A stretch of DNA of 46,138 nucleotides from Candidatus Poseidoniales archaeon (GTDB lineage: Archaea > Thermoplasmatota > Poseidoniia > Poseidoniales > Poseidoniaceae), in the NCBI GenBank assembly GCA_003602605.1, contig QQRW01000038.1:7924-54061 (forward strand), written 5' to 3'. Every line of letters begins with the position of its first letter. Position 1 is the first letter of the stretch. The notes below the pieces were generated by a model, which saw only the letters and a list, made by a program, of their open reading frames with translations, was not told where the DNA came from and did not search any database. The position numbers and the translations under genes were made by a program. Positions 2 through 14,852 of this stretch are shown here, in pieces.

Positions 2-3000
2 GGTTTCGTGAGAGAAGAACACAGTACTCGGAGCCATTGCATGCCGGTCAATACCCCACTGCGATTCCATAGAAGTGATGAAAGAGTCAACCGTTTGTGC
101 GACGTGTTCAACATCGAGTCTTGTACCATGGAATGCAGAGTTAGCGGTCGTGGAACCGAGCAATTCTGCAATTGGTTGGACACCACGTTGCATGGCTTCA
201 GAGTGGCGTTCAACAACGAAAGCCGCTGCACCCATGCCGAGCACCAAACCGTTTCGGCGGCGGTCGAACGGCAAAGCAGCCTCTTCGACAACATTGCCAG
301 TAGCCGCTGCACCGGAGGCAGCAAAGCCTCCCCCAATCCATTCCCAGAGATCTTCGCCAGTCACATCGTCAGCAGAAATGATGACAACGCGGTCGACTCT
401 GTCGCTGTTCAACCAGTCTTCAGCAACGCCAAACGCTGCAGTGGTTGATGCACAGGCGAGGTTGATGGTCGTGTTTGGACCACGAATCCCTGTGTACTGT
501 GCGAATTGTGAATGACCCATATTGAGCGTTTGGAAGAGGTATCGGCGGTCAAATCGCCCTTCGCCGTCATCACCATCGCTCTTGGCGTGTTTCATTGCCA
601 TTTGGAGGCCAGGGAAACAGGAGGCAAACACAATTCCGGTTCGCTCGCGCTGATGTTGAGGAACTTGCCAATTGCGAATCAATCGCAAACCACCTTTGCC
701 GATTTGTTCAACCGGAGTGAGGGGTATGGCTGCATCTCGAAGTGCTAAGAGTCCAGAGGCGACTGCCAGTTGGGTTGTGATGTCCCAAGCAAGAACGACC
801 TTGGCATCGATGCCAAACTCTTCTGCAATGTCAAACGCAGACTTAACACCTGCAAGTTGAGGTATGTCGCCAAACTCCTTGGCTTGTTCCATGTTGACAG
901 AACCATCTCTACCTTTGATGAGGCGAACGATGTTCTTGTCCAGTAAACGTTGCTTGTATTCATCGCTCACTTCCGAAATACATGTCTCGCCGCGCACCAA
1001 GCGTTCGAAAGTATCTTCCTCGAACACACGCTCCCCACCAGGTAGGCCAAGAGAGACGCCGGTTACCACATATGGGTCTGCCTTTCGTCGATCAGTATGT
1101 GTCGGAGAAGCCATGGTTTGAGGGCTCGATTGGGTTGTCGGGGCATGCGACATCGAAGTCTGAGGACTCCATGATGTCGGAAGGGCGGTAATCCATTTTG
1201 CAAGATCTGCAGCCGTGGTAATCGTGGAGGTATCGAGTGAAGCATCAACGGCAGCTTCCGATGAAACGGTGTGAAGAACCGATGCCACTTGTGCATCGCT
1301 CATACCAAGTCCGAGGCGAAGATTGACCATACCGCTACAGAAACGAGCAGGATAACCACTCACTGCTGCAAGGCGATCGCCAAGATAAGCATCCATTGCC
1401 TTGGCAGCAGCCACTGCCGGATCGACGTTTCGTGGAGCTGCAGTATTGACTTGAACGATGTTCTGAACCGGCGCGGAGCCGCCTGTTGAGGGCAGAGGAC
1501 GGGCTCGAGTTCGCAAGTCATCGGCTTGAGCAGTACTGAAAGAAGGAACACTTGAATCACCATAGGCTTCGATTGGTCCAGCTCTAAACGCTTCAGTAAG
1601 CACATGAGAATCTGCAGCAGGCCATTGCGGTTTACGGCCTGCAAGAGCAAGTGTGCCCAACGCACTGAGGAAGGTTGCGATGCCACCTTGCTTTGGATGG
1701 TTGCACATTATTGGCAAATGCGGTTTGTCTTCGAGAATCTGTACGGCAAACATGGTGAGAGCACGCTTTGGACCGACCTCGAGGAAGGCGCGTGCACCTG
1801 CAGCATACATGGTTTCAATTTGAGTGGTCCACTCAACGGCTGATGCCATCTGAGGGGCAAGTTTTCCAAGAACCCCTTCCTTCGAATTATCACCTTCCAT
1901 TGGATAGAAGGTTCCATCGACATTGGCAGTGATTGGAATACGAGGCCAGCGAATTTCAAGACTCTCGAGGAATCTGCGCAGAGGTTCGTTTGCGGGCGCA
2001 ACGATGCGGGAATGGAAAGCGTGCGAGGTTGCAAGAGGTACGGCTTGGAATCCTTTCTCCTCGAATTGAGCCATGGCCTGCTTCACAGGTTCAGTCTCTC
2101 CAGCAATGACCGTCATTTTGGGTGAATTCTTGTTGGCTGCAATAACATAGCCTTCAATCGAATCAAGTACGGACGCAACTTCGTCGTAAGGAGCCATAAT
2201 GCTCGCCATCAAACCTTTGTCTTCGATGACAACGGAGCCCATTTCAGTTCCACGTGCTGCAGATGCTCGCAGTGCTCCATCCATATCTAAGATACCTGCA
2301 GACATGAGTGCTGCGTATTCTCCAAGAGAATGTCCTGCGACCATGTCTGGGTGTTGGCCGTGATCGTTCAGTGCTCGCTCAATGGCCAAATCAGCCGTGA
2401 GCATTGCGGGTTGAGTGTATTCGGTTTGTTTCAGTTTGTGTTCAGCTTCAATCCGTTCTTCCTTGGTCAGGTTTGAGCGTAAAACGAAACTGGACAGCGT
2501 TTCGCCCTCCAAGACATCGACCATCGTCTCATCGGCTTGCTCCCAAACTTTCTGGACGGCGCTGTAGCGTTGATGCAAATCGTGTGTCATGCCAACGTAT
2601 TGACTTCCCTGACCAGGATACATGTGGGCGACTTTCGCCTTTGGATGAAGAGCTGGGTCATTGGTCAACAGGACGCCTTGTGCCTGTAGGAAGCCCCACT
2701 TCTCGGGGTCACTCATGGCTTTGCTTGCAAGTGCTGTACGCTTATGGAACTCAGCCCAAGAAGTCGCAACGATACACATGCGGAAAGCATCCGACTCAGC
2801 ATAATCAGATGATGCTGAATCCAAAGCGGACGACAGACGGAGGCCTCGAGGGTCTTCATCGAAATGCAGACCAGCAAAATCAATCGCTTCTAACTTGGCT
2901 TGAAGTGAGGATAGGTCAGAAGAAGAAAGCAGCAAAATTCCACCTTCTACGGCCTTCATCTGTTCATGTGTCATCGAAGGTTGTGCAGTTGAGTCCAACA

Positions 3001-4540
3001 CCGATGCAGCATCTGATTGAACGGAAGATGATTTTGATTCTTGGGCGTAAGCGGACCAGCGGGAGTCCCACTTCTGAGCGAGTTCAGCGTGGTATTCAGG
3101 TTCAAAACCTTCCAATGCAACGTGATAATTGGTTCCGCCAAAACCGAAAGCAGAAACACCTGCTCGACGAGGGTGATTCACCGGACGAGGCCAGTCTCGT
3201 GCTTCTGTAGGAACAAAGAAAGCGTTGTTATCCCAATCAACAGTCGGATTTGGCGTCTTGAATCCTGCTGAAGGCGGGATTGTACGGTGATGAAGGGACA
3301 TGACGGCTTTGATTAGCCCCGCAATTCCAGCGGCTGCTTTCAAGTGTCCTACTTGAGATTTAATGGAACCAACTGCCACGTGGTCGCCCGCTGGCGAGCC
3401 ATCCCAAAGCAACGAAAGCGTGCCCAATTCGGTAGCGTCTCCGACTTTGGTGGAAGTTCCGTGGGCTTCAATCAATTCGACGGTCGTGACATCGTACTCC
3501 GCCTGTGAATATGCACGAGCAATGGCTTGAATTTGCCCGCGTTGACTTGGAGCAGTAATCCCTTTTCCTCGTCCGTCCGACGAACCGCCTACGCCACGAA
3601 TAACTGCATGAACCTCGTCACCGTCTCGAATGGCATCGGAAAGACGCTTGAGGACAAAAGCACCCGCACCTTCCCCCATTACGAATCCGTTTGCGCCTGC
3701 ATCGAAAGGTGTAGAATGAGTGGGAGAAAGAGCACCGATTGCGCTGAACTTTGCAAAGGTAGGAGCATCCATACTGCGATCGGTAGCTCCAGCAATCATG
3801 ACATCCACTTGACGCATTTGCAAAAGGCGACAAGCGTCCATGAGGGTTGCTAAAGACGAAGCACAGGCGGCATCCATTGCGAAATTAGGGCCTTGTAAGT
3901 CCAAAAGGTTGGAAACTCGACCGGCAACGACATTGGCTAACTCTCCGGGCATCGTGTCTTCATTGACACGGGGTGCACCGGTGTTGATGGCGTCGACAAA
4001 GGCATCTCCGTTAGCTGTTGGCATCCCAAACGACTTGGCTATTTCCTTGGTGTGGTTCGAATAGATTCGAATGTTAGAGAGGTTTCTGTTTTCACCGCCA
4101 AGAGCGTTGGCAAACGCCACTCCAGTACGTAGCCGGTCAATGTCTTTGTTTTCAGCATCGTATCCAGCATGCTCAATTGCTGCTGCTGCAACGGTAACTG
4201 CCCATTGTTGAGCAAGGTCGATTTGAGTGAGCGTACCTGGAGGTTGTTTCCATCGACGCCAATCGAACTCATATCCTTCGACAACTGCACCGATACGTGC
4301 GTAGGTGTAGCCTTCCTCGATGTTTCCTGGACCGCCGTCTCGGAAGAAATGGTCTACAGGTCCGATCCATCGGTGTTCGGGGATTTGACGAATACTGACC
4401 TTGGAATCGAGAATATTCTGCCAAAATGAATCGATGTCTGGTGCATCCGGCATCAGTGCTGAAACCCCAATAACAGCAATCGGTTCAAACGGCCCTTGTT
4501 CAAGTCCCTGGACTTCGTTTCCTTTGGCATCTTTGACCAT
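2..4540 (-). CDS. Type I iterative PKS/FAS (PfaA/HglE-like), 3'-truncated by window edge; domains KS1 (~4490-3110), AT (~2630-1640), degenerate ACP-like (~1400-1190), KS2 (~1075-<1)
   Basis: Manual translation from ATG 4540 (GAGGTGA SD upstream): MVKDAKGNEVQGLEQGPFEPIAVIGVSALMPDA. KS1 motifs DAACASSL (Cys 3863-3865), EAHGTST, GHLKAAAG, SAFGFGGTNYH. AT motifs YPGQGSQ, GHSLG (Ser 2327-2329), HAFHS. KS2 motifs GPNTTINLACAST (Cys 452-454), LPFDRRRNG, FFSHET (His 8-10). All checked motifs are in one frame, and its absence from the ORF track is consistent with no stop before the edge. Confidence 0.95.
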   Translation of the reverse strand, partial: MVKDAKGNEVQGLEQGPFEPIAVIGVSALMPDAPDIDSFWQNILDSKVSIRQIPEHRWIGPVDHFFRDGGPGNIEEGYTYARIGAVVEGYEFDWRRWKQPPGTLTQIDLAQQWAVTVAAAAIEHAGYDAENKDIDRLRTGVAFANALGGENRNLSNIRIYSNHTKEIAKSFGMPTANGDAFVDAINTGAPRVNEDTMPGELANVVAGRVSNLLDLQGPNFAMDAACASSLATLMDACRLLQMRQVDVMIAGATDRSMDAPTFAKFSAIGALSPTHSTPFDAGANGFVMGEGAGAFVLKRLSDAIRDGDEVHAVIRGVGGSSDGRGKGITAPSQRGQIQAIARAYSQAEYDVTTVELIEAHGTSTKVGDATELGTLSLLWDGSPAGDHVAVGSIKSQVGHLKAAAGIAGLIKAVMSLHHRTIPPSAGFKTPNPTVDWDNNAFFVPTEARDWPRPVNHPRRAGVSAFGFGGTNYHVALEGFEPEYHAELAQKWDSRWSAYAQESKSSSVQSDAASVLDSTAQPSMTHEQMKAVEGGILLLSSSDLSSLQAKLEAIDFAGLHFDEDPRGLRLSSALDSASSDYAESDAFRMCIVATSWAEFHKRTALASKAMSDPEKWGFLQAQGVLLTNDPALHPKAKVAHMYPGQGSQYVGMTHDLHQRYSAVQKVWEQADETMVDVLEGETLSSFVLRSNLTKEERIEAEHKLKQTEYTQPAMLTADLAIERALNDHGQHPDMVAGHSLGEYAALMSAGILDMDGALRASAARGTEMGSVVIEDKGLMASIMAPYDEVASVLDSIEGYVIAANKNSPKMTVIAGETEPVKQAMAQFEEKGFQAVPLATSHAFHSRIVAPANEPLRRFLESLEIRWPRIPITANVDGTFYPMEGDNSKEGVLGKLAPQMASAVEWTTQIETMYAAGARAFLEVGPKRALTMFAVQILEDKPHLPIMCNHPKQGGIATFLSALGTLALAGRKPQWPAADSHVLTEAFRAGPIEAYGDSSVPSFSTAQADDLRTRARPLPSTGGSAPVQNIVQVNTAAPRNVDPAVAAAKAMDAYLGDRLAAVSGYPARFCSGMVNLRLGLGMSDAQVASVLHTVSSEAAVDASLDTSTITTAADLAKWITALPTSWSPQTSMSHAPTTQSSPQTMASPTHTDRRKADPYVVTGVSLGLPGGERVFEEDTFERLVRGETCISEVSDEYKQRLLDKNIVRLIKGRDGSVNMEQAKEFGDIPQLAGVKSAFDIAEEFGIDAKVVLAWDITTQLAVASGLLALRDAAIPLTPVEQIGKGGLRLIRNWQVPQHQRERTGIVFASCFPGLQMAMKHAKSDGDDGEGRFDRRYLFQTLNMGHSQFAQYTGIRGPNTTINLACASTTAAFGVAEDWLNSDRVDRVVIISADDVTGEDLWEWIGGGFAASGAAATGNVVEEAALPFDRRRNGLVLGMGAAAFVVERHSEAMQRGVQPIAELLGSTTANSAFHGTRLDVEHVAQTVDSFITSMESQWGIDRHAMAPSTVFFSHET

Positions 4541-4551
4541 ATCATCTCACC

Positions 4552-5346
4552 TCAGTCGTTCATAATGCTCTGCGGCACCATCGTAATCGAATATCCACCA
4601 TCAACATAGATGCATTGCCCAGTGACGCCGCTTGAGAGGGGGCTAGCTAACCACAAGGTTGCACCTGCAACATCCTCTTGGCTGACGTTCCTTCGCAGAG
4701 GCGAGTTGGCTTCGACATGGTCGAGAATATTGTCAAATCCTGGAACGCCGCTCGCAGCGATAGTCCGTATAGGGCCTGAAGAAATTGCATTCACACGGTG
4801 TCCTTCTGGACCAAGGTGGCATGCAAGTTCACGCGTCCAACATTCCAGTGCCGCCTTAGCCATCGACATTATTCCGTAATTTGGAACGAAACGGTTTGAA
4901 GCCGCATAGGTCAACGTGACCGTTGAAGATCCTGGATTGAGATACGGCAGAGCATGCTTCAAACATCGTTGCAATGAATTCGCTGAAATCGTCATTGCTG
5001 TATTAATATCGCTGTCCTCTACAAACAAAATTGGACGGTCAAAGCATGCACGAGGAGCAAAGCCAATCGCGTGAATCAGAATATCTGCCTTCTTGCCGGG
5101 GTGGTCTTTCTCAAACGCCTCAAAGAATTCTCGAGTTGTGGCATCTTCCGCAACATCCAACGGATAAAATCCACCAATCTGTGGCAACTTATCCTTTAGT
5201 TGGAAAATACGGCTCATGAAACGCTTCTGATAACCGAGGTACAGCGTGACACCAGCAGCAGCAAGTTGTTGACAAATGGCCCATGCAATCGAGTCCTCAC
5301 TGGCAACACCGAAGACAAAGGCTATTTTTCCCTGTAATTGTAGCAT
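4552..5346 (-). CDS. fabI: Enoyl-ACP reductase, FabI-type SDR
   Basis: GVASEDSIAWAI, HAIGFAP, catalytic Y-x6-K (YGIMSMAK), RVNAISSGPIRT, VTGQCIYVDGG. Start reassigned to ATG 5346 behind an AGGTG SD. Confidence 0.93.
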   Translation of the reverse strand: MLQLQGKIAFVFGVASEDSIAWAICQQLAAAGVTLYLGYQKRFMSRIFQLKDKLPQIGGFYPLDVAEDATTREFFEAFEKDHPGKKADILIHAIGFAPRACFDRPILFVEDSDINTAMTISANSLQRCLKHALPYLNPGSSTVTLTYAASNRFVPNYGIMSMAKAALECWTRELACHLGPEGHRVNAISSGPIRTIAASGVPGFDNILDHVEANSPLRRNVSQEDVAGATLWLASPLSSGVTGQCIYVDGGYSITMVPQSIMND

Positions 5347-5351
5347 AAAAG

Positions 5352-5391
5352 CACCTACCCAATGGGTAGGTGTTGGCCGTAACACCTATCC
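5352..5391. promoter_or_regulatory. Perfect 21-bp palindrome plus a third complementary arm over the fabI SD (operator or RNA switch)
   Basis: CACCTACCCA-A-TGGGTAGGTG at 5352-5372. AACACCTATCC at 5381-5391 is complementary (1 mismatch) to GGGTAGGTGTT at 5364-5374. Confidence 0.6.
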
Positions 5392-5461: not shown

Positions 5462-6574
5462 TCACAGGTCATCGAATAAATCATCAAACTCATCATTTGA
5501 TGACGAGCTTTCGTCAAGATCGTCGAAAAGGTCATCGAAATCATCTGCTGATGGTTGCTGAACTGGCTCCTCTGGTAGGATAATGGGTTGTTGAATTTGA
5601 GGCATCTTGTTTTTATTTGGCTTCTTCTTTGTCACCACTCGAATGAGAACGACCAAGAACAAGACAAGTAGGATAGCTCCACCTCCAATCGAAGCGTACA
5701 ACAGCGTGCTATCGGAATTCAAGGAATCGAGCCCATCAATACCTGCATTCTTTGATGGTGCTGTGATATCGAGTTGAATTGTAATTTCACTAAATGGAGC
5801 ATCATCATCATCGCCACTTTGAGCTCGGATGATAAGAGGCATACGCAAATCTTCACTCACGGAAGACGGGGCCCGAATAGACAGTGTTTTCACACCAGAT
5901 GTGCCTTGGTAGGGAACATTCTCATTCACCTTTTTTCCACTCGGGAAAGTAAACTGCGCTGCCTCGAGGTCAGCAGCATTCACGAACAGGACTTCCAACA
6001 AATCGTCGTCATTACCTTTATTGGTCACTTGGAATGAAAACTCAACTTCTTCACTCGTATCCATGTACCGTGTCGAAACATCGGAAAGAAGCAATTCGAC
6101 CATACCGTACGATTCGATAATCAAATCCCCAGAGTATGTCGTGTTAGCGACCCAGGGGCCGTCAGGAAGTTGACCATAAGGAAGATTATTCCAAGACTCG
6201 ACTTTAGCACCAAGTTCAAAGGAATAATCCGTAGAAGCGGGGATTTTAGTTTGTCCAGTGAAAACGACATCAAAGGTGTCTTCTTCACCTGCTGCAAGAG
6301 TGAATGAATCTTCACTAAGTGCCAATTCGACCAAAGTTCCGTCCCATTCAAGCGTTTCCACGCTGATGACTTCACTGGCAGAAGTTGGATTCGTGACTGT
6401 GCACTGGAGTTTCACCTCAGCGTCGGAGGTTGGACGAACATCAAGAACTGGATCAGATGGGCCGCAATCCAATTCAACAGCAGGTATTGGTGAACCTTGG
6501 GCTGAGGCAGGTAGAACAAGACAAGGTGCCAAGAAAAGACCGAATACGAGACAAAGAATCAGACCCTTTCGCAT
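5462..6574 (-). CDS. Secreted, C-terminally membrane-anchored surface protein with beta-sandwich (Ig/CARDB-like) domains and acidic cytoplasmic tail
   Basis: Signal peptide MRKGLILCLVFGLFLAPCLVLPASA (start reassigned to 6574); two xVTNxx..D/E segments; TM YASIGGGAILLVLFLVVLI followed by KKKPNKNK; acidic tail. Confidence 0.8.
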   Translation of the reverse strand: MRKGLILCLVFGLFLAPCLVLPASAQGSPIPAVELDCGPSDPVLDVRPTSDAEVKLQCTVTNPTSASEVISVETLEWDGTLVELALSEDSFTLAAGEEDTFDVVFTGQTKIPASTDYSFELGAKVESWNNLPYGQLPDGPWVANTTYSGDLIIESYGMVELLLSDVSTRYMDTSEEVEFSFQVTNKGNDDDLLEVLFVNAADLEAAQFTFPSGKKVNENVPYQGTSGVKTLSIRAPSSVSEDLRMPLIIRAQSGDDDDAPFSEITIQLDITAPSKNAGIDGLDSLNSDSTLLYASIGGGAILLVLFLVVLIRVVTKKKPNKNKMPQIQQPIILPEEPVQQPSADDFDDLFDDLDESSSSNDEFDDLFDDL

Positions 6575-6650
6575 GGTTGCCACCAAACATCGCTGTATGC
6601 TTTCACACATGAATGTGATGGCTTTTTGTCGAAGAAAAAGGCTTCTCGAA

Positions 6651-7538
6651 TTACCTAATGCTCGGCCCGTAGAGTTCTTCTCCAAGATCACGATGTGCTT
6701 TCCAGAGATATTCTTCATCCAACCCTGCCTCTAAGAGTTGATGCGTTCTTTTTGGCACCGTTTTGGGACCTAAAACTGCCCCGGGACGGCGAACATCATC
6801 CATATAATCCGTTTCAAGAAAGAAACCGTGTGAAGATGACTCAACTGTTTGCATCAATTCGGAGATCGCACCCTTTCCAATCAAGACGCTCGGAGTAAGC
6901 CCTTGTGTGACTTCTTTGGAAATCGTTGCAGGAGCATAATGACGAACCAAACGACGAGGGGAAAGGCCCGCTTTTTCAGCCATTGCAGAGAGGTCTCGGT
7001 ATGTTGAATCGAGTTCACCTTCGACGTGTAGTTGCAGAGCAATTCCTTCTTTTTTCGCCAAGTGCATTGTTTCCAGAAGCAAGGTGTTGGAGAGTTCCCA
7101 AACAGTGTCATCGACAGGCCAGTGCGGCCTACCAACCTCACCGACAGCGTGGGCCTTGCCTTCATGCACAAATTCGAGTGCAGCATCAATGCTGTCGCGA
7201 TAATTTTCCACCGCCTTTTCAGCGCCTTTTTCTCCAGATTCCTGCATCCATGCTGCGAACTGATGGGCGAATGCTGCTGGATGAGGACCGAGAACGACAC
7301 GAACGCCAAGGCCGACTTTTCTTCGGACTTCTTCCGCCATCTCAATTGTATTCGAATACGTCTCAATGTGACCTTGTTTTTCAGTAGGCGGGGCAGAAAA
7401 GTCTGGGCAGTGTACCAAGACAATGTCCGTACCACCTGCGTTTTTGAAGTCTCGAGCAGCATCCAAGTAACGGCCGTTTCGATTCAAATGGAAGTGATTG
7501 TCGAGAACTGGGCCATCCCACCGTTTCGACCCCTCCAT
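6651..7538 (-). CDS. TatD-family metal-dependent hydrolase (archaeal type)
   Basis: DNHFH, GPHP, AVGEVGRPHW, LQLHVE, VRHY, LETDYMDD..RPGAVLGP. Confidence 0.9.
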   Translation of the reverse strand: MEGSKRWDGPVLDNHFHLNRNGRYLDAARDFKNAGGTDIVLVHCPDFSAPPTEKQGHIETYSNTIEMAEEVRRKVGLGVRVVLGPHPAAFAHQFAAWMQESGEKGAEKAVENYRDSIDAALEFVHEGKAHAVGEVGRPHWPVDDTVWELSNTLLLETMHLAKKEGIALQLHVEGELDSTYRDLSAMAEKAGLSPRRLVRHYAPATISKEVTQGLTPSVLIGKGAISELMQTVESSSHGFFLETDYMDDVRRPGAVLGPKTVPKRTHQLLEAGLDEEYLWKAHRDLGEELYGPSIR

Positions 7539-8146: not shown

Positions 8147-8964
8147 TCCTCCTCTGTTTGACCTGATGAGGTCGTGATTAAACTAATCTCCTCTCCGTTT
8201 GGAAGAGTTTGAAGTGCTTGCAAAAGCGTATTCCGGTGAGGCAAGTACATCACCAAAAGCAGGGTAGCTTCGCCACCATGCTCGGCTCGCAGAGATGCCA
8301 AAGCCCCACGGAGTCGGGCAGCGTATCGTCGGTCACGGTCTGCTGCAACCTCTGGCGAGACAATCCATTCACTCAAATCCCACCATGTGGCAGAGAGAAC
8401 TGCGGCTGATCCAAAATTTGAGGACACACCTTTCGGTGGTTTTTGCGCATCGAAAATATTCTTCTTGACGCGCTTGCGCCATTTACCACCAATCGAAATC
8501 ATTCCGAGCAACTTACGCCAGTGCGATGCTGCTTTTGCTTCTCGAGTGAGGTGTTTGTTCCATTCTTCGTCGTCTGCTGTAGGCTCGATGAAGAAAACGG
8601 GCCGTTCGTGACGAACTGCGTTCCGATGCAATCTTCGAGGCTCTGGGTCTGGGAAACGTCCACTCGTTACGTCTTCAACCATCGAAATTTCATCTAAGAA
8701 AATCCCGAAAGAACCTCCTGAAATCAAACCATGAGACAGATTTACTCCCGGGGATTCAGCTTCGTCTTTTTCTTCTTGGACCCATAGATCGACCACATCA
8801 GGCGATTCAAGCAAAGCCAAGCCATGCCATTCTTCACGTGTTCGCATAGAACGAGGGTAGACGACCGTCGGCAGTACCGAATGAATGACAATCTTCCCCC
8901 CATCGGGGTCTTCCCAAGTATGGTCGCCCCATTCCAGTCGAGCGGGCACGACGTTCACACTCAC
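8143..8964 (-). CDS. Hypothetical protein, weak resemblance to TraB/GumN family
   Basis: Long ORF, likely GTG start overlapping the upstream stop (GTGA). C-terminal DRDRRYAARLR...LLLVMYLPH resembles TraB RDxxMAxxL...VxVVGxxH. Confidence 0.6.
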   Translation of the reverse strand: MSVNVVPARLEWGDHTWEDPDGGKIVIHSVLPTVVYPRSMRTREEWHGLALLESPDVVDLWVQEEKDEAESPGVNLSHGLISGGSFGIFLDEISMVEDVTSGRFPDPEPRRLHRNAVRHERPVFFIEPTADDEEWNKHLTREAKAASHWRKLLGMISIGGKWRKRVKKNIFDAQKPPKGVSSNFGSAAVLSATWWDLSEWIVSPEVAADRDRRYAARLRGALASLRAEHGGEATLLLVMYLPHRNTLLQALQTLPNGEEISLITTSSGQTEEE

Positions 8965-11900
8965 TGGTTGTTGACCCAATCTTGCAGCGCCTCAATGCTC
9001 CATCCTTGGTCAAAGTAACCTTGGATTTCATCTTGAGTCCATTGCGGGAATTGTTCCATTGCTCGGGCCATCTCAGGCGAGACGTTCGCTGCGGGTGCAG
9101 GTGGACCAGAAACTGGCGTCGATTGGCCAGGTAACTCTGCATACGCTTTGTCATCCTCATCTTCGTATTCATCGTAAATATCACCATCGCCTCCACGACG
9201 AATCAAGACGACAACAAGTGTTCCAAGGACTGCAACAGCGATACCCAAGATAGCAAGAACAAGCATAAATCCACCGGAATCACCCGAATCACTCTGAACT
9301 TTGACATTGAACGATTCACCCTGGGATGAACCGTTGTACAGCAGTTCTCCAGTCGTATTGTCGGAGATGAGATAGTACATTCCAGTCGTTGCTAAAGTGA
9401 ATTGCTGCAAGTCAACCTTCACCCACTGCGATGCACCAACCGGGATATCTCCTGTGTCGATGCTTGCTTCGAGTACAGGGACTCCGCCGTTGATGACGGA
9501 GCGAATGTTCAACACAGTTGAACCGTCAAGCGTTCCAGTGTTGAGAACTTCAATTTCAAGTTCAATGTCTTCACCGACTTCGGGTTTAGCTGGACTAATT
9601 CGGACATTTTTAACATCGAACGAGGCTTCCTCGAAAATCAGCTCATAACTGGATTTATGAGTTGGGTTGCTTGAGAAGATTGGAGCAATACCGCCTTCAT
9701 CCGTAAGACCGCCACCAAGCATGGCTTGGGTTCCAGCCGAATCGGTTGCATCAATCCAGAAAACAACTTCGACACCGTCAATTTGGTCTTCATCTGGGTC
9801 GGTCTGTCCCTCTGTAATTGGCCAAAGATCAACACATTCTGCCGAAGCGAAATACGATCCACCACTAGGGTTGAGGGTGAGTTCTTGAGTCATCGGCATA
9901 TCACCGAAGGTTGCTCGGTAAACTGGCCATGTGATGTTGTTTGTTGAGTCGGAGAAGAAACTCCAGGCAACAGAAACATCTCCTTGGAACAGTGCTTCCT
10001 GCTCTTGGATAACGACTTCAACATCGACACAGTGGTATGTTGAGGTTGGGAGAACATTCGCCAATGGCTCTTGGTTTCCGTCTTTCAATGTCCATGTGTT
10101 CGAAACGACGAGAGGTGCAGAAGCATCGACCCTCAAATTGAAGGTTTGACATCCGTATGCTTCTGAAACACAAATTGCGGACGATGTATCAACTGCACCC
10201 ATTGGTAAGCCTTCGATTCCGCCGCCACACTCTCCGTTTGCTCCACCGTCACCACCAGTTGCATCGTAAGGACACAATCGGAACGTGTAGGTGTAATCAT
10301 TAGTTACCGGTGGTGCTGTGATATTGATATCAAAGACACCTCCGGTAAACGAATGGTATGTTACTTCTCCAGGGAAGGCAATGTAACCTTTGGAACCATC
10401 CATAGCAGCAGCCTGCCGTGTCAATTCAAGCGTCAATTCAATCTCTGGAGTGATGTAGACTTGGTCGAGGATTCCGTCAAGGTAAGCGTATTGTCCTTCA
10501 AACGAAATGATATCGCCTGGGTAAACGAAGCCCTTTCGAACGTCTTGAGTAATTGGAGTCATCAAATCACTGAAGACCGGTGAAATCATCAAATCATTCG
10601 CAGAATCTGCACGGAAATCAAGTTGAATTCCGTCGCTGTAGTACCAATCTTGAATGTGACGTCCGGAAGCTGGTAACATTCTGTATCGAGGGTTGTCAAG
10701 GTCCTGCATGTAGAGAACTGGGTTGTTGATCGAGGTTGTAGCACCTGGCAAACCCCAAGTCATTCGGATTGGGAGATCAAGATAGAATTCTGTTTCGAAC
10801 GGATCAATCAACACACCGCCATCCATGCGAAGGACCCGTGGGCCCTCAACATCACCGTCTTCAGCAATGATTTCGATGTATGGACTGTTTGTCCATGCCG
10901 TGTTGTTACGGGGGTAATAGTAGACTGTCATGTCGTCTCGGTCGTCAGCCATGTCGACACGGAAGTAATCTACGTCTCTCCATCCGTTGTCGTCCTTTGC
11001 CTCCACGATGAGATGGTACACGTTACCGGCGTACATGGTGTGATTCCACTTGCCGTTGTATTGCTGTTGGTTCGATTTGAGGAAGCGATTATCTTGTGAA
11101 TCATCGATAAAGAAGTTTCGAATGACTGGAGATTTCGAACTCATAGAAACATAGGTGAAATGGTCGTTCTCGAATCCAGGAGCACCACCGTCAATTGGGT
11201 TTCCTGCCTTGTCAAACCCTTCAATCCAAATGCTGACCTTACCCACTGGGTCTTGTCCAACGTTTGCATAGTCGTTATAGGTCGCAGTATAATTCGCAAA
11301 CGGAGCCTCACCATCGCTGTAAGCGGTTACTGTGATGTATTCTGATTCTTCTGCAAGTCCGTTAGAGTTCGCATCGTGATCGTACTCAACCCAAACCTTG
11401 ATGTCGAGCGATTCTGGGGGGTTGGGTAGGTCACTGGCACTCATTCGAATCTGTTGTGTAGCAGAAGGAACAACCCATGTGTCGTCAACCATCACTCGCC
11501 AGTTGCTGTCAAGCGCTGGGTCGACTTGGCCGTTCAAAATTTCGACCTCAAGCAAATTCGGATCCAGCGTGTCAATCGAAAGATTGAACGGGATTGCACA
11601 CTCACTGTCAGGCCGGAATTCAGCCGCAGGACAGAGCGTCTCTCCGCCCTCGTAGCCGTCGATTCGGAATCTGTATGTGTCTTGACCAGCAGCCATACCG
11701 AGGTCAACATCCCAAGAGAAATCTCCACCTGGTAGACCGGAGCGGTTCGCAACAGAAATCCATTCAATCGAGATGTTGCCATCGGTGTTGTTGACATACT
11801 TTTGTTCGAGGACCATGAAATAGCCACTCGGGTCTGGTGAAATGGAGAGGTCTTGGAGTCGGATAGCCCCGTTGAGGGTGACCGTTTGTCCAGAAGTTCC

Positions 11901-14852
11901 GTCATCAAGGTCTTGGACAATTCCGATGTTGTTGAGGACTTCAAACGAAGTAACGACAGCGTCGTTTTCAACAGCGTTACCACCGGTAGGAGCTAGAAGG
12001 ACTGCATCCGGAAGCCCATTGACGCCGTTGGACGCAATTGAACCTGAGTAGATTCGAACTTCATCGGTATCCTCCCACTCAGAATTTACGACAAAGCGCC
12101 ATGTGATTTCCTTTCCATCTGCGATTGTCGTAGCAGTCGAAGATTCAAGGGTGATCAAATCTCCAATGTCGGAAACCTCAGAGAACAGCAAAGCATCGCT
12201 GTAACCAAGAATAACATTACCAGTCTCGGATTCGAAGGTCAAACGGGCTTCAACGAGAGTGGAGCCAGTCAGAGGGCTCACAGTGTGAGTAGTCGTGATT
12301 TCGTAGATGGCTCCGTTTGGATACAATCCGACCGGATTTCCAACCAAACTAATCGAGTTATCGTAGCCACTCGAGGTTGAAACCATGAGATTTGATAATG
12401 CTGCGCCTCCACCTGTAGAGCTTGTGAAAGTCATTGGTACTTCGGCTGTAGAGCCACCGTCCCACAAGGCAACGCCCTTGTTCAACTCACGATCAAAGCC
12501 GTCCGCAGTGCCGAGTGAAACGGTGTAATTGTAAACAATATCGAGGTCGCGAACCGTCACTTGAGACGAAGTTGAAGCGTTTGGCGATTCTGCTTTCAAT
12601 CGGAAGGTCTGCCATTCGGTACCGTAAGCGTCGTAATGACTGACAGGAACCAAAGCATTACCGAGCAAAGAGTTCAGTGCTGATTTGAAATCAAGGTTTG
12701 GTGCGTTAGCGAGCAACAGAAGCGTCGTGTTCTCGACACTGCCCAAAACAACTTCCTGTGTACCAGAGAGAAGAGACAATTCGAACCCTTCGGTTGAATC
12801 AGTATTCGAGAAAATTCCCATTTGGTCAAAGACCAAATCAACTGAAGTAACTTCTGCCCCCTTTGGTAGCATGAACATTGCACCTTCGGCAACACCAGTG
12901 CTGTCGATGATGAGGTCAGAGGATGACTTACCGTAATTAACTCCATCAACCTTAGCCTTCAAGAATTGAGTTTGGCGCCCGAAACCTCCGAACGCCTCTT
13001 CATCGAATCCCCAGTCAATGTGTCCATCATTGGCGACATCCAACTGGATATCATCGGGGTGGTGGCCAAACGTAAGGTCAAACCAAATGCCCCCAACATT
13101 ACATGGGTCCTCAAAGGAAACCATAGAGTCGAAACCGAACACTGGTTCATCCAAGATATATTCGACACCGTTGGAGAGTTGGTAAAACGAGGCACCTCCT
13201 TGAGAGAAAACCTCAATCGTTGGGGCTTCAGTACAATCTTTCTCGACATACGGCTTAATGCGGGTAATCGGTCGATCGAAATCGCTTCGTTGGAGCGTTG
13301 GCGTATACGATGTATCGCTGATAATCGGTGTATACGTCAAAAACTCACCAGCCCCGGTTGTTGACCAGACACCCTGGAAAATGTTCGGTATCTCGTCGTA
13401 ATAGGAGGCGTTCAATCCCGTACCAACCCGAGTACCAATACTGAATCCGTGGAACACCGGAGATGAAAGTCGGTCGGGTCCCGAATTGAATGTGAATCTA
13501 AAGTCGATCGAAGGGTGTTCGGTCGAATTGATGCCCCACAATTCGATGATTTCTCCTTGAAGGTTGGTCATTGCATCACCTTGTCGGTCATGAACGATTG
13601 AACCGGTAGACGAGTCAAGCACATCAACTGAAATCGTTGCTGTGCTGGTTGTTTCAGTTTCAAGTGCTAGAATACCGTATCCGTTCGGCTGGTTCGGGCC
13701 ACCTGAGTTTGATGGCAGGAATCCGTTAATGCTCATGTTTGCAGATGCTGGAAGAGGGTCTCCAACTCGGAAGTTATCGACATACCAACCGGCTTTGCCA
13801 CCATCGGTGCCAAGGACATCATTGTCTTCCATGACAAAGCGTATCTGAACATATTGTCCCGTGTATGGACCCAAATCTACGGCAATGTTTGCCCAACCGT
13901 TCGGGTTACCAGCAGTCGTTGAAGTGCCGCCAAGTGCCCCGTCTCCAGGGGTTACGCCATTGCATCTCGAGTCAATCTGGCCAGCCGTGTTTTGGTTGGT
14001 GGATACGGTATAGTATCCTGTGCCCCAGCTCAATGATGAATTGGAAAGACTGATTTCCAAGTAATCAAATCCGTTCGGGTCGTTGACATCGAGGTCATCG
14101 TTTTGAGAGGAGCGTATTTCGAGGTATGCACAGTCACGGAAGTAAACCGATGGGTTGGTTCCGCTGCTGGTGCCAAGGTCCAAGTCGTGCCATGAGTCAA
14201 AGTAAGCGAGGGAACTCTTGAGTGAAGAGTCGATGAAAATTGTTTCAGATGTCATCATGTATTTGCGGCCGTTTGCTCCAGCGTTCTTACTGGTGTAGTC
14301 ATCGTCATAGAGCCCAGTGCCCCAGCAATATGTGCCGCTCGCACAGTCGGGAATATCGATGTTCGGCGCAAGAGTGGTTGGGTCAATAGAACCATGATCC
14401 CATCCGTGAGTATCACCGGTCAAAGCGCGATGGTCAACGAAACCGGAAGAAGTTTCTTCAAAGTCGGTAAGGAAGCCTTCAGACTTCAATTCGACTGGAA
14501 CTGCATTTGAACCGTCCTCGTAAACGAAATCAGCGACGTTCGAGAACTTTGTCAGTTGATTGTTGTACATAGGATTCCATACACGAGGCATGGTGTCCAA
14601 GTCAATACGTGTGTGCGCAGAGTGTTCAAGCATCGAAGTCGAAAGATCGACCGATGCACTGGTCACTGTTTCTGAAGCTGGAAGGTGAACAAAACCCTCG
14701 TCAATAAACGGGCTCCCATCTCTCAATTCGATTTCATCGGTTGCGTTTCCGCCTCCAAACGTGGACACGTTTGCTGCTGCAGCAAACGGTGCCAAGAGCA
14801 TTAAGAAAACTAGGAAAAATGCTGATTTAAGTTGTTGATTGTCGTTCGTCAA
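8961..14852 (-). CDS. Giant (1963 aa) secreted membrane-anchored surface protein with M6/MAM-like jelly-roll insert and C-terminal CARDB-like domain
   Basis: TTG start with AGGTGA SD; signal peptide; QYVQIRF...AGWYVDNFRVG; DANSNG loop; ISPAKPEVGEDIELEIEVLNTG; TM GFMLVLAILGIAVAVLGTLVVVLI-RR; Trp-rich tail. Confidence 0.88.
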   Translation of the reverse strand: MTNDNQQLKSAFFLVFLMLLAPFAAAANVSTFGGGNATDEIELRDGSPFIDEGFVHLPASETVTSASVDLSTSMLEHSAHTRIDLDTMPRVWNPMYNNQLTKFSNVADFVYEDGSNAVPVELKSEGFLTDFEETSSGFVDHRALTGDTHGWDHGSIDPTTLAPNIDIPDCASGTYCWGTGLYDDDYTSKNAGANGRKYMMTSETIFIDSSLKSSLAYFDSWHDLDLGTSSGTNPSVYFRDCAYLEIRSSQNDDLDVNDPNGFDYLEISLSNSSLSWGTGYYTVSTNQNTAGQIDSRCNGVTPGDGALGGTSTTAGNPNGWANIAVDLGPYTGQYVQIRFVMEDNDVLGTDGGKAGWYVDNFRVGDPLPASANMSINGFLPSNSGGPNQPNGYGILALETETTSTATISVDVLDSSTGSIVHDRQGDAMTNLQGEIIELWGINSTEHPSIDFRFTFNSGPDRLSSPVFHGFSIGTRVGTGLNASYYDEIPNIFQGVWSTTGAGEFLTYTPIISDTSYTPTLQRSDFDRPITRIKPYVEKDCTEAPTIEVFSQGGASFYQLSNGVEYILDEPVFGFDSMVSFEDPCNVGGIWFDLTFGHHPDDIQLDVANDGHIDWGFDEEAFGGFGRQTQFLKAKVDGVNYGKSSSDLIIDSTGVAEGAMFMLPKGAEVTSVDLVFDQMGIFSNTDSTEGFELSLLSGTQEVVLGSVENTTLLLLANAPNLDFKSALNSLLGNALVPVSHYDAYGTEWQTFRLKAESPNASTSSQVTVRDLDIVYNYTVSLGTADGFDRELNKGVALWDGGSTAEVPMTFTSSTGGGAALSNLMVSTSSGYDNSISLVGNPVGLYPNGAIYEITTTHTVSPLTGSTLVEARLTFESETGNVILGYSDALLFSEVSDIGDLITLESSTATTIADGKEITWRFVVNSEWEDTDEVRIYSGSIASNGVNGLPDAVLLAPTGGNAVENDAVVTSFEVLNNIGIVQDLDDGTSGQTVTLNGAIRLQDLSISPDPSGYFMVLEQKYVNNTDGNISIEWISVANRSGLPGGDFSWDVDLGMAAGQDTYRFRIDGYEGGETLCPAAEFRPDSECAIPFNLSIDTLDPNLLEVEILNGQVDPALDSNWRVMVDDTWVVPSATQQIRMSASDLPNPPESLDIKVWVEYDHDANSNGLAEESEYITVTAYSDGEAPFANYTATYNDYANVGQDPVGKVSIWIEGFDKAGNPIDGGAPGFENDHFTYVSMSSKSPVIRNFFIDDSQDNRFLKSNQQQYNGKWNHTMYAGNVYHLIVEAKDDNGWRDVDYFRVDMADDRDDMTVYYYPRNNTAWTNSPYIEIIAEDGDVEGPRVLRMDGGVLIDPFETEFYLDLPIRMTWGLPGATTSINNPVLYMQDLDNPRYRMLPASGRHIQDWYYSDGIQLDFRADSANDLMISPVFSDLMTPITQDVRKGFVYPGDIISFEGQYAYLDGILDQVYITPEIELTLELTRQAAAMDGSKGYIAFPGEVTYHSFTGGVFDINITAPPVTNDYTYTFRLCPYDATGGDGGANGECGGGIEGLPMGAVDTSSAICVSEAYGCQTFNLRVDASAPLVVSNTWTLKDGNQEPLANVLPTSTYHCVDVEVVIQEQEALFQGDVSVAWSFFSDSTNNITWPVYRATFGDMPMTQELTLNPSGGSYFASAECVDLWPITEGQTDPDEDQIDGVEVVFWIDATDSAGTQAMLGGGLTDEGGIAPIFSSNPTHKSSYELIFEEASFDVKNVRISPAKPEVGEDIELEIEVLNTGTLDGSTVLNIRSVINGGVPVLEASIDTGDIPVGASQWVKVDLQQFTLATTGMYYLISDNTTGELLYNGSSQGESFNVKVQSDSGDSGGFMLVLAILGIAVAVLGTLVVVLIRRGGDGDIYDEYEDEDDKAYAELPGQSTPVSGPPAPAANVSPEMARAMEQFPQWTQDEIQGYFDQGWSIEALQDWVNNQ

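What the first reader, a model, noticed from the sequence alone, without database searches (positions are those of the whole stretch)
2..1075. Second, apparently catalytically intact KS after the AT (KS-AT-ACP*-KS order)
Seen: a second KS begins at PYVVTGVSLGLPG and keeps Cys (INLACAST) and a His box (FFSHET), with no KR or DH between the two KS domains. Established: PfaA is KS-MAT-ACPn-KR, and the second KS-fold in PfaC is a Cys-less chain-length factor adjacent to the KS. Inference: two active condensing centres could split initiation and elongation, or perform head-to-head or branching condensation.
Basis: partly seen in the sequence, partly recalled or inferred. Interest (0 to 1): 0.75.

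Follow-up and report, generated by a model that had tools for sequence, protein, structure and literature searches.

The report
Second active ketosynthase in archaeal lipid megasynthase
A marine group II archaeon carries a giant bacterial-style fatty-acyl synthase with two apparently working chain-building domains; this layout was catalogued in bacteria in 2011, but what it makes is still unknown.

Summary
Window 2-1075 (minus strand) encodes residues 1156-1513 of a 3056-aa protein that runs off the window. The order is KS1-AT-(decayed carrier-like linker)-KS2-ACPx4-KR-DH, with a FabI-like enoyl reductase gene upstream and an Sfp-type PPTase gene downstream. KS2 has Cys1363 and His1511.

Across 182 KS2 domains from relatives, Cys is kept in 181, and both His and the Lys in all 182. 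The host is a Poseidoniales (marine group II) archaeon.

The architecture is not new. It matches the "Type R" secondary-lipid synthase of Shulse & Allen 2011 (Roseiflexus, Acidobacteria, Elusimicrobium), where KS2 was labelled "CLF" and the product is unknown. That label does not fit the residues.

KS2 is a deep clade of its own and looks most like FabF. A shared origin with PfaC's CLF could not be rejected (AU p 0.43-0.85).

Most likely both KS domains condense and share the elongation cycles, as the two KS of PUFA synthases do. Nothing supports head-to-head or branching chemistry.

This genome has no other FabF-type KS. KS2 was not found in 50 of 151 sampled genomes of the order.

Earlier follow-ups in this scan reached the same Type R reading on three other genomes.

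Noticed in passing: the carrier domains have Thr, not Ser, at the cofactor site.

The parts
2..4540 (-). In-window part (aa 1-1513 of 3056) of the megasynthase gene. The full ORF is G000:C32 = L002:3293-12463(-): KS1-AT-linker-KS2-ACPx4-KR-DH.
   Evidence: ORF list; translation; Pfam domains
3074..4486 (-). KS1 (aa 19-489), a PfaA-type ketosynthase with Cys226, His360, Lys394, His399
   Evidence: PF00109 4.1e-65, PF02801 and PF16197; TIGR02813 PfaA best stretch aa 20-942; residue tally
1637..2623 (-). Acyltransferase (malonyl-CoA:ACP transacylase-like) domain, aa 640-968, with GHSLGE at 736
   Evidence: PF00698 2e-34; TIGR00128 fabD 4.1e-62; motif position
1121..1453 (-). No Ser or Thr at the cofactor position.
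   Evidence: No Pfam hit; hmmsearch against the protein's own ACP profile 1.8 bits; MAFFT alignment; hhalign probability 14.5%
2..1075 (-). N-terminal 358 residues (aa 1156-1513) of KS2. The domain continues to about aa 1650 beyond the window (L002:7550-9100(-) holds all of it).
   Evidence: TIGR03150 fabF 7.1e-38; PDB FabF 1.4e-25; AlphaFold2 model pTM 0.81 with FabF as top Foldseek hits
452..454 (-). Codon of the KS2 active-site Cys1363 (INLACAST)
   Evidence: Codon mapping; Cys in 181 of 182 family KS2 domains
8..10 (-). Codon of the first catalytic His of KS2, His1511 (SHET). Lys1546 and His1551 lie outside the window on the same ORF.
   Evidence: His 182/182, Lys 182/182 and second His 182/182 in the family
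4552..5385 (-). FabI-like enoyl-ACP reductase gene immediately upstream; the likely trans-acting ER of the synthase
   Evidence: PF13561 3.3e-70. The top 12 NCBIfam hits are all FabI models, best 225 bits, below their cut-offs. It sits upstream of the synthase in 30 of 34 Poseidoniales-type loci.

Best explanation
Window 2-1075 encodes the front part of KS2, a second and catalytically complete beta-ketoacyl synthase domain. KS2 sits in a PfaA-like iterative megasynthase of the 'Type R' kind: KS1-AT-linker-KS2-ACPx4-KR-DH. With the FabI-like reductase gene upstream and the Sfp-type PPTase gene downstream, this forms a self-contained, carrier-protein-dependent, fully reducing fatty-acyl synthase. 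Shown here: the fold, the Cys-His-His-Lys set and its near-total conservation, the architecture, the conserved neighbours, and the kinship with the bacterial Type R genes. Inferred: both KS domains carry out decarboxylative Claisen condensation of malonyl-ACP with a growing acyl chain. They use the one AT and the shared ACP array. They divide the elongation cycles (priming or short chains versus long chains) between a PfaA-type KS1 and a FabF-like KS2, as the two KS of PUFA synthases do. The chain is then reduced by KR, DH and the trans ER. With no thioesterase domain present, it is probably handed to an acyltransferase. In this archaeon the synthase is the only FabF-type condensing system found.
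For: KS2 is a full-length KS. It matches fabF TIGR03150 at 7.1e-38 over positions 24-401 of 407 and PDB FabF at 1.4e-25. All Foldseek hits listed for its model (ranks 1-50) are FabF or mitochondrial KAS, with TM up to 0.86 normalised to the target.

Catalytic residues in 182 family KS2 domains: Cys 181, His 182, Lys 182, His 182. KS1 is also intact.

The architecture KS1-AT-KS2-ACPn-KR-DH is the commonest form, 70 of 188 family proteins. Most of the rest are truncated or variant forms of it. It is the Type R layout described, and the Roseiflexus locus has it.

The enoyl-reductase role is filled by three unrelated enzymes at the same place:
- FabI-like upstream in 30 of 34 Poseidoniales-type loci.
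- A ~555-aa acyl-CoA-dehydrogenase-family gene directly upstream in 39 of 46 bacterial loci. Its best NCBIfam match is an ETF-dependent acryloyl-CoA reductase.
- A fused NMO/PfaD-like domain in 4 of 10 long homologues.

A PPTase lies downstream in 23 of 34 archaeal-type loci or is fused in 7 of 10 long homologues. Acetyl-CoA carboxylase genes lie nearby in 10 of 46 bacterial loci.

In the window's own genome only KS1 and KS2 match the fabF model. It also has 3 carboxyltransferases and 3 PlsC-type acyltransferases.

Precedent for two active KS used by chain length: PMC11962503.

KS1 and KS2 subtrees pair the same taxa, so the two domains are inherited together.
Against: No product is known for any Type R synthase, and nothing here measures activity.

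KS2 scores 130 bits against a fabF cut-off of 493.75, so it is not a FabF equivalog. Model confidence is low in residues 276-312 of the domain.

A common origin of KS2 with PfaC's CLF could not be rejected. With one CLF the constrained tree was better by 21.4 lnL, p-AU 0.852. With two CLFs it was 2.79 lnL worse, p-AU 0.434.

The ACPs carry Thr where all characterised carriers have Ser. If Thr is not modified, the synthase cannot work as described.

KS2 was not found in 50 of 151 sampled genomes of the order, including all 48 genomes of six genera. The synthase is therefore not indispensable for this group.

No thioesterase or release domain was seen. Which KS does which cycles is pure analogy.
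Confidence: 0.6

Rival explanations
1. KS2 is a chain-length-factor-type partner, as Shulse & Allen labelled it. It would pair with KS1 as a KS/CLF-like heterodimer that shapes the acyl pocket or only primes by decarboxylating malonyl-ACP, and would not itself elongate chains.
For: The 2011 catalogue calls this domain 'CLF'. AU tests do not reject KS2 and PfaC CLF as one clade: p 0.852 and 0.434. AT-KS2 adjacency is nearly invariant with a short linker, median 73 aa, which would let KS2 fold back onto KS1.
Against: A CLF is defined by loss of the active-site Cys, yet KS2 keeps Cys in 181 of 182 domains and both His plus Lys in all 182. Free trees place KS2 with FabF/FabB (SH-aLRT 99-100) and place CLF with PfaC KS (94). 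In 9 family proteins an extra KS-like domain with His replaced by Phe or Tyr follows KS1, where PfaC has its CLF, and KS2 is still present with a full catalytic set. Profile and fold matches are to FabF.
Confidence: 0.15
2. The protein is a two-module line. KS1-AT-(ACP) is a first module that makes a starter once. KS2-ACPn-KR-DH is a separate iterative module that borrows the AT.
For: A real ACP sits between AT and KS2 in a minority of family proteins; seven such architectures were tallied, about 9 of 188 proteins. An example is the Bradymonadaceae homologue, with PP-binding at 1808-1871 before KS2. Split forms starting at KS2 exist. The window's linker has faint ACP likeness.
Against: In this protein and most relatives no working carrier lies between AT and KS2. 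The linker has no Pfam hit, has Asp at the cofactor position and is short in most members. Many 'split' forms may be truncated metagenomic ORFs.
Confidence: 0.15
3. KS2 performs a non-elongating condensation (head-to-head OleA-like, or branching).
For: There is only the bare fact of two Cys-bearing KS in one protein. No tool result points this way.
Against: KS2 has the Cys-His-His-Lys set of decarboxylating KAS I/II enzymes, and its matches are FabF or FabB. The only FabH-type hit is E 0.0023. The conserved partners are ER, PPTase and acetyl-CoA carboxylase, which is a fatty-acid-synthesis set. That OleA is a FabH-like thiolase is recalled, not tested. Ole genes were not searched for.
Confidence: 0.05

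Closest known systems
Type R secondary-lipid (Pfa-like) synthase clusters of Shulse & Allen 2011 (Koribacter, Solibacter, Elusimicrobium, Roseiflexus)
   Same: Both have one pfaA homologue with KS-MAT-second KS fold-tandem ACPs-KR, followed by a PPTase gene. A Roseiflexus locus has the same domain order, with 48% identity in KS2. Acetyl-CoA carboxylase genes are often nearby.
   Different: The host here is an archaeon. The gene upstream is FabI-like, not the acyl-CoA-dehydrogenase-family gene of the bacterial loci. The paper calls the second KS fold 'CLF', whereas it keeps all catalytic residues. The bacterial hosts checked also have true FabF; this genome does not.
PUFA synthase PfaA/PfaC (Shewanella, Moritella, thraustochytrids, myxobacteria)
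   Same: Both are iterative and have tandem ACPs. KS1-AT...KR-DH is PfaA-like: TIGR02813 scores 911.9 bits. Both have two active KS in one synthase, used differentially.
   Different: In PUFA synthases the second KS sits on PfaC next to a Cys-less CLF and two FabA-type DH domains, as in the reference cluster fetched here. Here the second KS is inserted after the AT of the PfaA-like protein. There is no CLF and no FabA-type DH domain, and the score is below PfaA's cut-off of 1010.1.
FabF / KAS II of type II fatty acid synthesis
   Same: Same fold and same Cys-His-His-Lys set. FabF is the best profile, sequence and structure match for KS2. KS2 groups with FabF/FabB in free trees.
   Different: KS2 has about 20-25% identity to FabF and scores 130 bits against a cut-off of 493.75. 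It has an invariant Glu after the first His (SHET, where KS1 has HGT) and extra N-terminal inserts. It is embedded in a megasynthase.
Chain length factor (KS-beta) of type II PKS and PfaC
   Same: Both are a second KS fold accompanying a KS. A shared origin is not excluded by the AU tests.
   Different: A CLF lacks the active-site Cys and directly follows its KS. KS2 keeps Cys, both His and Lys, and is separated from KS1 by the AT.

Membership tests
Type R secondary lipid synthase (Shulse & Allen 2011) | Single pfaA homologue with order KS-MAT-second KS fold ('CLF')-tandem ACPs-KR | tested here: met
   Pfam and own-profile domain maps give KS1 19-489, AT 640-968, KS2 ~1156-1650, 4 ACPs, KR, DH. 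Definition read.
Type R secondary lipid synthase (Shulse & Allen 2011) | Downstream phosphopantetheinyl transferase gene | tested here: met
   L002:2530-3315(-) has PF01648 and PF17837. A PPTase lies downstream in 23 of 34 Poseidoniales-type loci; the rest have cut flanks.
Type R secondary lipid synthase (Shulse & Allen 2011) | Homology to the genes of the named Type R hosts (Roseiflexus, Acidobacteria) | tested here: met
   The Roseiflexus locus L073 and Acidobacteriota loci are 47-50% identical in KS2 and have the same architecture. They form one KS2 clade, SH-aLRT 100.
Type R secondary lipid synthase (Shulse & Allen 2011) | Fatty-acyl product | not testable with these tools
   The product is unknown even for the bacterial members.
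KAS I/II-type beta-ketoacyl-ACP synthase (FabF/FabB-like) | Thiolase-fold KS with active-site Cys, two His and Lys | tested here: met
   Cys1363, His1511, Lys1546 and His1551, conserved in 181-182 of 182 domains. All listed Foldseek hits are FabF or mitochondrial KAS.
KAS I/II-type beta-ketoacyl-ACP synthase (FabF/FabB-like) | Score above NCBIfam's fabF equivalog cut-off (493.75 bits) | tested here: not met
   130.3 bits. KS2 works like a FabF-type KS but is not a FabF orthologue.
Chain length factor (CLF / KS-beta) | Active-site Cys lost | tested here: not met
   Cys is present here and in 181 of 182 family domains.
Chain length factor (CLF / KS-beta) | Directly follows its partner KS | tested here: not met
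   The AT and a linker (about 660 aa) separate KS1 and KS2.
Chain length factor (CLF / KS-beta) | Phylogenetic grouping with PfaC CLF | tested here: inconclusive
   Free trees put KS2 with FabF/FabB (99-100) and CLF with PfaC KS (94). The AU test does not reject KS2+CLF: p 0.852 and 0.434. Only two CLF sequences were available.
PfaA (NCBIfam TIGR02813 omega_3_PfaA) | Whole-protein score above cut-off (1010.1 bits) and KS-MAT-ACPn-KR-DH with no extra KS | tested here: not met
   911.9 bits. An extra KS2 lies between AT and the ACPs.
OleA / FabH-type non-decarboxylating or head-to-head condensing enzymes | Membership of the FabH-like branch of the thiolase superfamily | tested here: not met
   KS2's only FabH-type hit is E 0.0023 at 16.9 bits, against 130 bits for fabF. 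Ole partner genes were not searched for.

The most novel reading that the evidence does not exclude
Type R synthases are a third, self-contained kind of type I fatty acid synthase with three unusual features. Two active ketosynthases share one AT and one ACP array. The enoyl reductase can be swapped among unrelated enzymes (FabI, ACAD/ETF or NMO type). The carrier domains are phosphopantetheinylated on threonine instead of serine by their dedicated PPTase. Acquired by Poseidoniaceae, and also seen in Asgard and Thermoplasmatota bins, this synthase would be these archaea's only route to fatty acyl chains. It would therefore be the enzymatic basis of the proposed bacterial-type or mixed membrane lipids of marine group II.
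Probability: 0.3. Interest if true: 0.8.

Novelty: new member of a known kind. Interest (0 to 1): 0.45.

Why it matters
Archaea are generally said to lack ACP, ACP synthase and a complete fatty acid synthase (bioRxiv 10.1101/2024.07.05.601840, passage seen). Marine group II archaea are among the most abundant microbes in the surface ocean. They have been proposed to make lipids with bacterial features (PMC7852524 and PMC6461757, passages seen).

This gene set is a concrete, complete, ACP-dependent candidate for that capacity. It was found in 74 of 74 other sampled genomes of the window's family.

For enzymology, the point is that the 'CLF' of a catalogued but unstudied synthase class is really a second intact ketosynthase. 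The class also has cultured hosts (Roseiflexus, Acidobacteria) in which this can be tested. The near-universal Thr at the carrier's cofactor site, if it is modified, would widen what is known about phosphopantetheinylation.

Tried and rejected
1. Carrier likeness of the AT-KS2 linker. There was no Pfam hit, 1.8 bits against the protein's own ACP profile and hhalign probability 14.5%. It is too weak to call an ACP; it is at most a decayed one.

2. Careful (bootstrap) tree. It did not finish in the time allowed, so only quick trees with SH-aLRT support are reported.

3. AU tests to exclude a KS2+CLF clade. They did not reject it, so the claim 'KS2 is unrelated to CLF' was dropped.

4. Expression. 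Two marine metatranscriptome libraries (X1, X2; two studies) and one cDNA library of guessed kind (X3) held contigs about 90% identical to parts of the gene. One 1991-base contig covered window 3-906. Of the 40 differences listed, 37 fall at third codon positions. These are relatives' copies, assembled as contigs, in libraries that may hold DNA. This is not counted as evidence of transcription of this gene.

5. Literature.
- Searches for Poseidoniales with 'polyketide synthase' (2 papers, listing only, neither looks relevant) and with 'acyl carrier protein' (1 paper, listing only, a hydrocarbon-degradation survey).
- 'archaea' + 'polyunsaturated fatty acid synthase' + 'Asgard' gave 0 papers.
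- The architecture strings KS-MAT-CLF, KS-AT-CLF, KS-AT-KS and KS-MAT-KS gave only the 2011 paper.
- Searches on Thr-bearing carriers found nothing relevant.
- Villanueva et al. 2017 (Environ Microbiol) is not held. It may describe these genes.
- Supplements of the papers were not opened.

6. Complex prediction for a KS1-KS2 heterodimer was considered and not run. Any two KS folds would probably pass by likeness to solved KS dimers, so the result would not separate heterodimer from homodimer.

7. PlsY (PF02660) was not found in this 86%-complete genome. This is not evidence of absence.
Full report
**What is in the window.** The window's left end is the 3'-open part of a long minus-strand ORF, 2-4540. 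Codon mapping confirms that residues 1156-1513 are window 1075-2 exactly. Cys1363 is at 452-454 and His1511 at 8-10. The window is G000:C32:7924-54061. On the contig the ORF is L002:3293-12463(-), 3056 aa.

**Domain order.** Pfam gives:
- KS1 at aa 19-489
- AT at 640-968
- four PP-binding domains
- KR at 2520-2661
- a PKS-type DH at 2740-3048

The KS N-terminal model matched in two stretches. KS2 scanned alone matches NCBIfam fabF at 7.1e-38 over positions 24-401 of 407. Beyond the window KS2 continues NTKGFTGHPMG, which gives Lys1546 and His1551. No KR or DH lies between the two KS.

**Surroundings and host.** A FabI-like gene lies directly upstream, window 4552-5385(-). It has PF13561 at 3.3e-70, and its top 12 NCBIfam hits are all FabI models, though below their cut-offs. 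A Sfp-type PPTase lies directly downstream, L002:2530-3315(-). The next genes (a choice-of-anchor T protein, TatD, a TBP-domain protein) look unrelated. Proteins 82-98% identical to KS2 are named by their sources Poseidonia, Poseidoniaceae, Poseidoniales or Euryarchaeota (loci). The host is therefore a marine group II archaeon.

**Is KS2 intact as a family?** A full HMMER scan found 539 cluster representatives at E <= 1e-30. Many are 2000-4000 aa long with the match around residue 1200-2300. I mapped domains on 188 family proteins: 151 representatives plus 37 locus ORFs. The commonest complete form is KS1-AT-KS2-ACP(1-6)-KR-DH, in 70 of 188. Most others are truncated or variant forms.

In 182 KS2 domains of at least 380 aa:
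- the active-site Cys is kept in 181
- the first His is kept in 182
- the Lys is kept in 182
- the second His is kept in 182
- a family-specific Glu follows the first His in all 182 (SHET, where KS1 has HGT)

The first KS1 copies are intact too. The 10 'KS1' segments with changed residues include 9 extra second copies (KS1b) that follow KS1 in one clade. Most of these read Cys, Phe, Lys, Tyr at the four positions. An AlphaFold2 model of KS2 (mean pLDDT 74.1, pTM 0.81; low confidence at 1-31 and 276-312) retrieves only FabF and mitochondrial KAS structures among the hits listed (ranks 1-50). The PDB sequence search agrees.

**It matches a catalogued class.** Shulse & Allen 2011 (PMC3098273; sections 7 and 9 read) define a 'Type R' secondary lipid synthase. 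It is one pfaA homologue with 'KS-MAT-CLF-ACP(3-6)-KR' followed by a PPTase gene. It occurs in Koribacter, Solibacter, Elusimicrobium and Roseiflexus, its product is unknown, and it is sometimes next to acetyl-CoA carboxylase genes.

A scan of one genome per species returned 588 confirmed relatives of KS2, of which the best 80 were kept. L003-L036 carry archaeal titles, except L029. The other 46 are from Acidobacteriota, Chloroflexota (including Roseiflexus and Kouleothrix), Acidimicrobiia, Myxococcota and others, at 45-53% identity. The Roseiflexus ORF (2964 aa) and an Acidobacteriota ORF (2976 aa) have the same order as the window's protein.

So the architecture is known, and the domain the paper calls CLF is KS2. 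A search for the architecture strings found only that paper. I found no paper on the archaeal copies. Villanueva et al. 2017, which may bear on this, is not held. Earlier follow-ups in this scan reached the same Type R reading on three other genomes.

**Where KS2 comes from.** I built trees of KS1 and KS2 domains with these references:
- E. coli FabF and FabB
- four FabF from Type R host genomes
- the KS and CLF of two PfaC-type proteins and one PfaA-type KS, taken from a canonical myxobacterial-type pfa cluster

KS2 is one clade (SH-aLRT 100). It groups with FabF/FabB (100 under LG+G4; 99 under the C20 mixture). KS1 groups with the Pfa KS, and CLF groups with PfaC KS (94).

These are quick searches on long branches. 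The AU test does not reject a KS2+CLF clade. With one CLF the constrained tree was better by 21.4 lnL (p 0.852). With two CLFs it was 2.79 lnL worse (p 0.434). The origin is therefore unresolved.

What is firm is that KS2 is not a CLF by residues or by position. KS1 and KS2 subtrees pair the same taxa (for example Roseiflexus with Kouleothrix, and the window's protein with P0126), so the two domains travel together.

**What the system does.** The conserved partners point to full reduction.

*Archaeal-type loci.* FabI-like is upstream in 30 of 34; the four without it have cut flanks. A PPTase is downstream in 23 of 34.

*Bacterial loci.*
- A ~555-aa acyl-CoA-dehydrogenase-family gene is directly upstream in 39 of 46. 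Its best NCBIfam match is the ETF-dependent acryloyl-CoA reductase AcrC, at 231 bits, below the cut-off.
- ETF-alpha is next to it in 8 of 46.
- An acetyl-CoA carboxylase carboxyltransferase is nearby in 10 of 46.
- A PPTase is nearby or fused in 25 of 46.

*Long homologues.* Of 10 examined, 4 carry an N-terminal NMO/PfaD-like domain and 7 carry a C-terminal PPTase. One is labelled Asgard, one Thermoplasmatota and one Bradymonadaceae.

Three unrelated reductases at one position is best read as displacement of an enoyl-reductase role.

In the window's own genome (86% complete) only KS1 and KS2 match the fabF model. Three carboxyltransferases and three PlsC-type acyltransferases are present, and PlsY was not found. 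All four bacterial host genomes checked have true FabF above the cut-off. The system is thus 'secondary' in bacteria but the only FabF-type condensing system found here.

Against an essential role, KS2 was found in 101 of 151 sampled genomes of the order (G000 included):
- 74 of 74 in the window's family
- 2 of 2 in a second family
- 24 of 74 in a third family, where six genera with 1.2-1.6 Mb genomes have none (0 of 48)

**Mechanism.** PUFA synthases already show that two active KS in one iterative synthase are used differentially by chain length and acyl structure (PMC11962503, abstract and introduction read). I therefore think it most likely (about 0.6) that KS1 and KS2 both condense malonyl-ACP with the growing chain on the shared ACPs and divide the cycles between them.

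The rivals are:
- A CLF-like partner or primer role (0.15). The old label and the AU tests favour it; the residue conservation argues against it.
- A two-module reading (0.15). A real ACP between AT and KS2 in a minority of relatives favours it. In this protein the linker is at best a decayed carrier.
- Head-to-head or branching chemistry (0.05). There is no support for it.

**Noticed in passing: the carriers.** All four ACPs read LGIDTV. In a MAFFT alignment the Thr sits on Ser36 of E. coli AcpP and on the Ser of the reference PfaA-type ACPs. Family-wide, 449 of 474 ACP segments have Thr, 17 have Ser and 8 have something else or no motif. All ACPs are Thr in 149 of 163 proteins that have at least one ACP. 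Five proteins have Ser only and one mixes Ser and Thr. That suggests the two residues are interchangeable at a working site. My three searches found no report of Thr-bearing carriers, but they were lexical and limited. That AcpS does not accept a Ser-to-Thr ACP is recalled, not checked.

**Verdict.** The layout is a catalogued, uncharacterised class, and this is its archaeal member.

Noticed in passing
L002:6005-7291 (-), aa 1725-2153 of the megasynthase, outside the window on the same contig: All four ACP domains have Thr (LGIDTV) at the position of the phosphopantetheine-bearing Ser. It aligns with Ser36 of E. coli AcpP and with the Ser of PfaA-type ACPs. In the family, 449 of 474 ACP segments have Thr and 17 have Ser. 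All ACPs are Thr in 149 of 163 proteins, and five proteins are all-Ser. No report was found in three lexical searches.
   Followed up: partly
window 4552-5385 (-); bacterial loci e.g. L042:5185-6858 (+), L042:3397-5168 (+): The gene just upstream of the synthase differs by lineage. It is FabI-like in 30 of 34 Poseidoniales-type loci. It is a ~555-aa acyl-CoA-dehydrogenase-family protein (best match an ETF-dependent acryloyl-CoA reductase) in 39 of 46 bacterial loci, with ETF genes beside it in 8. It is a fused NMO/PfaD-like domain in 4 of 10 long homologues. This looks like non-orthologous replacement of the enoyl reductase.
   Followed up: partly
Proteins P0236, P0239, P0242, P0243, P0250, P0253, P0267, P0268, P0269 (family relatives, not in the window): One clade has three KS folds: KS1, then a second KS1-like copy with both catalytic His replaced (mostly Cys-Phe-Lys-Tyr) where PfaC has its CLF, then AT and an intact KS2. 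The position of this extra copy in the trees is unstable.
   Followed up: partly
Order-level survey, handles G005-G154: KS2 was found in 74 of 74 other genomes of the window's family. It was found in only 24 of 74 genomes of a sister family, where six genera with small genomes (1.2-1.6 Mb) have none (0 of 48). This suggests loss with genome streamlining.
   Followed up: no
L029 (CAXRAI010000082.1): A contig titled 'Salinimicrobium sp.' carries the Poseidoniales-type operon (75% identity in KS2). It has the same TatD, unknown gene, FabI, PPTase and M28 peptidase neighbours as L003. It is probably a binning or labelling error.
   Followed up: no
G001 and G002 (genomes of L038 and L039): Records titled 'uncultured Enterobacterales/Enterobacteriaceae' are 8-9 Mb genomes with many PKS-like genes. 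They carry a myxobacterial-type pfa cluster: an ER gene, a KS-AT-ACP-KR-DH gene, and a gene with KS, a second KS fold (CLF), FabA-type DH domains and a C-terminal acyltransferase domain. The titles may not reflect the true taxon.
   Followed up: no
window 8961-14852 (-) and 5462-6718 (-): A 1963-aa ORF has no Pfam family at E <= 0.001. A 418-aa ORF matches NCBIfam 'choice-of-anchor T' at 1e-28. Both lie upstream on the same strand as the synthase operon. No link to it was seen.
   Followed up: no
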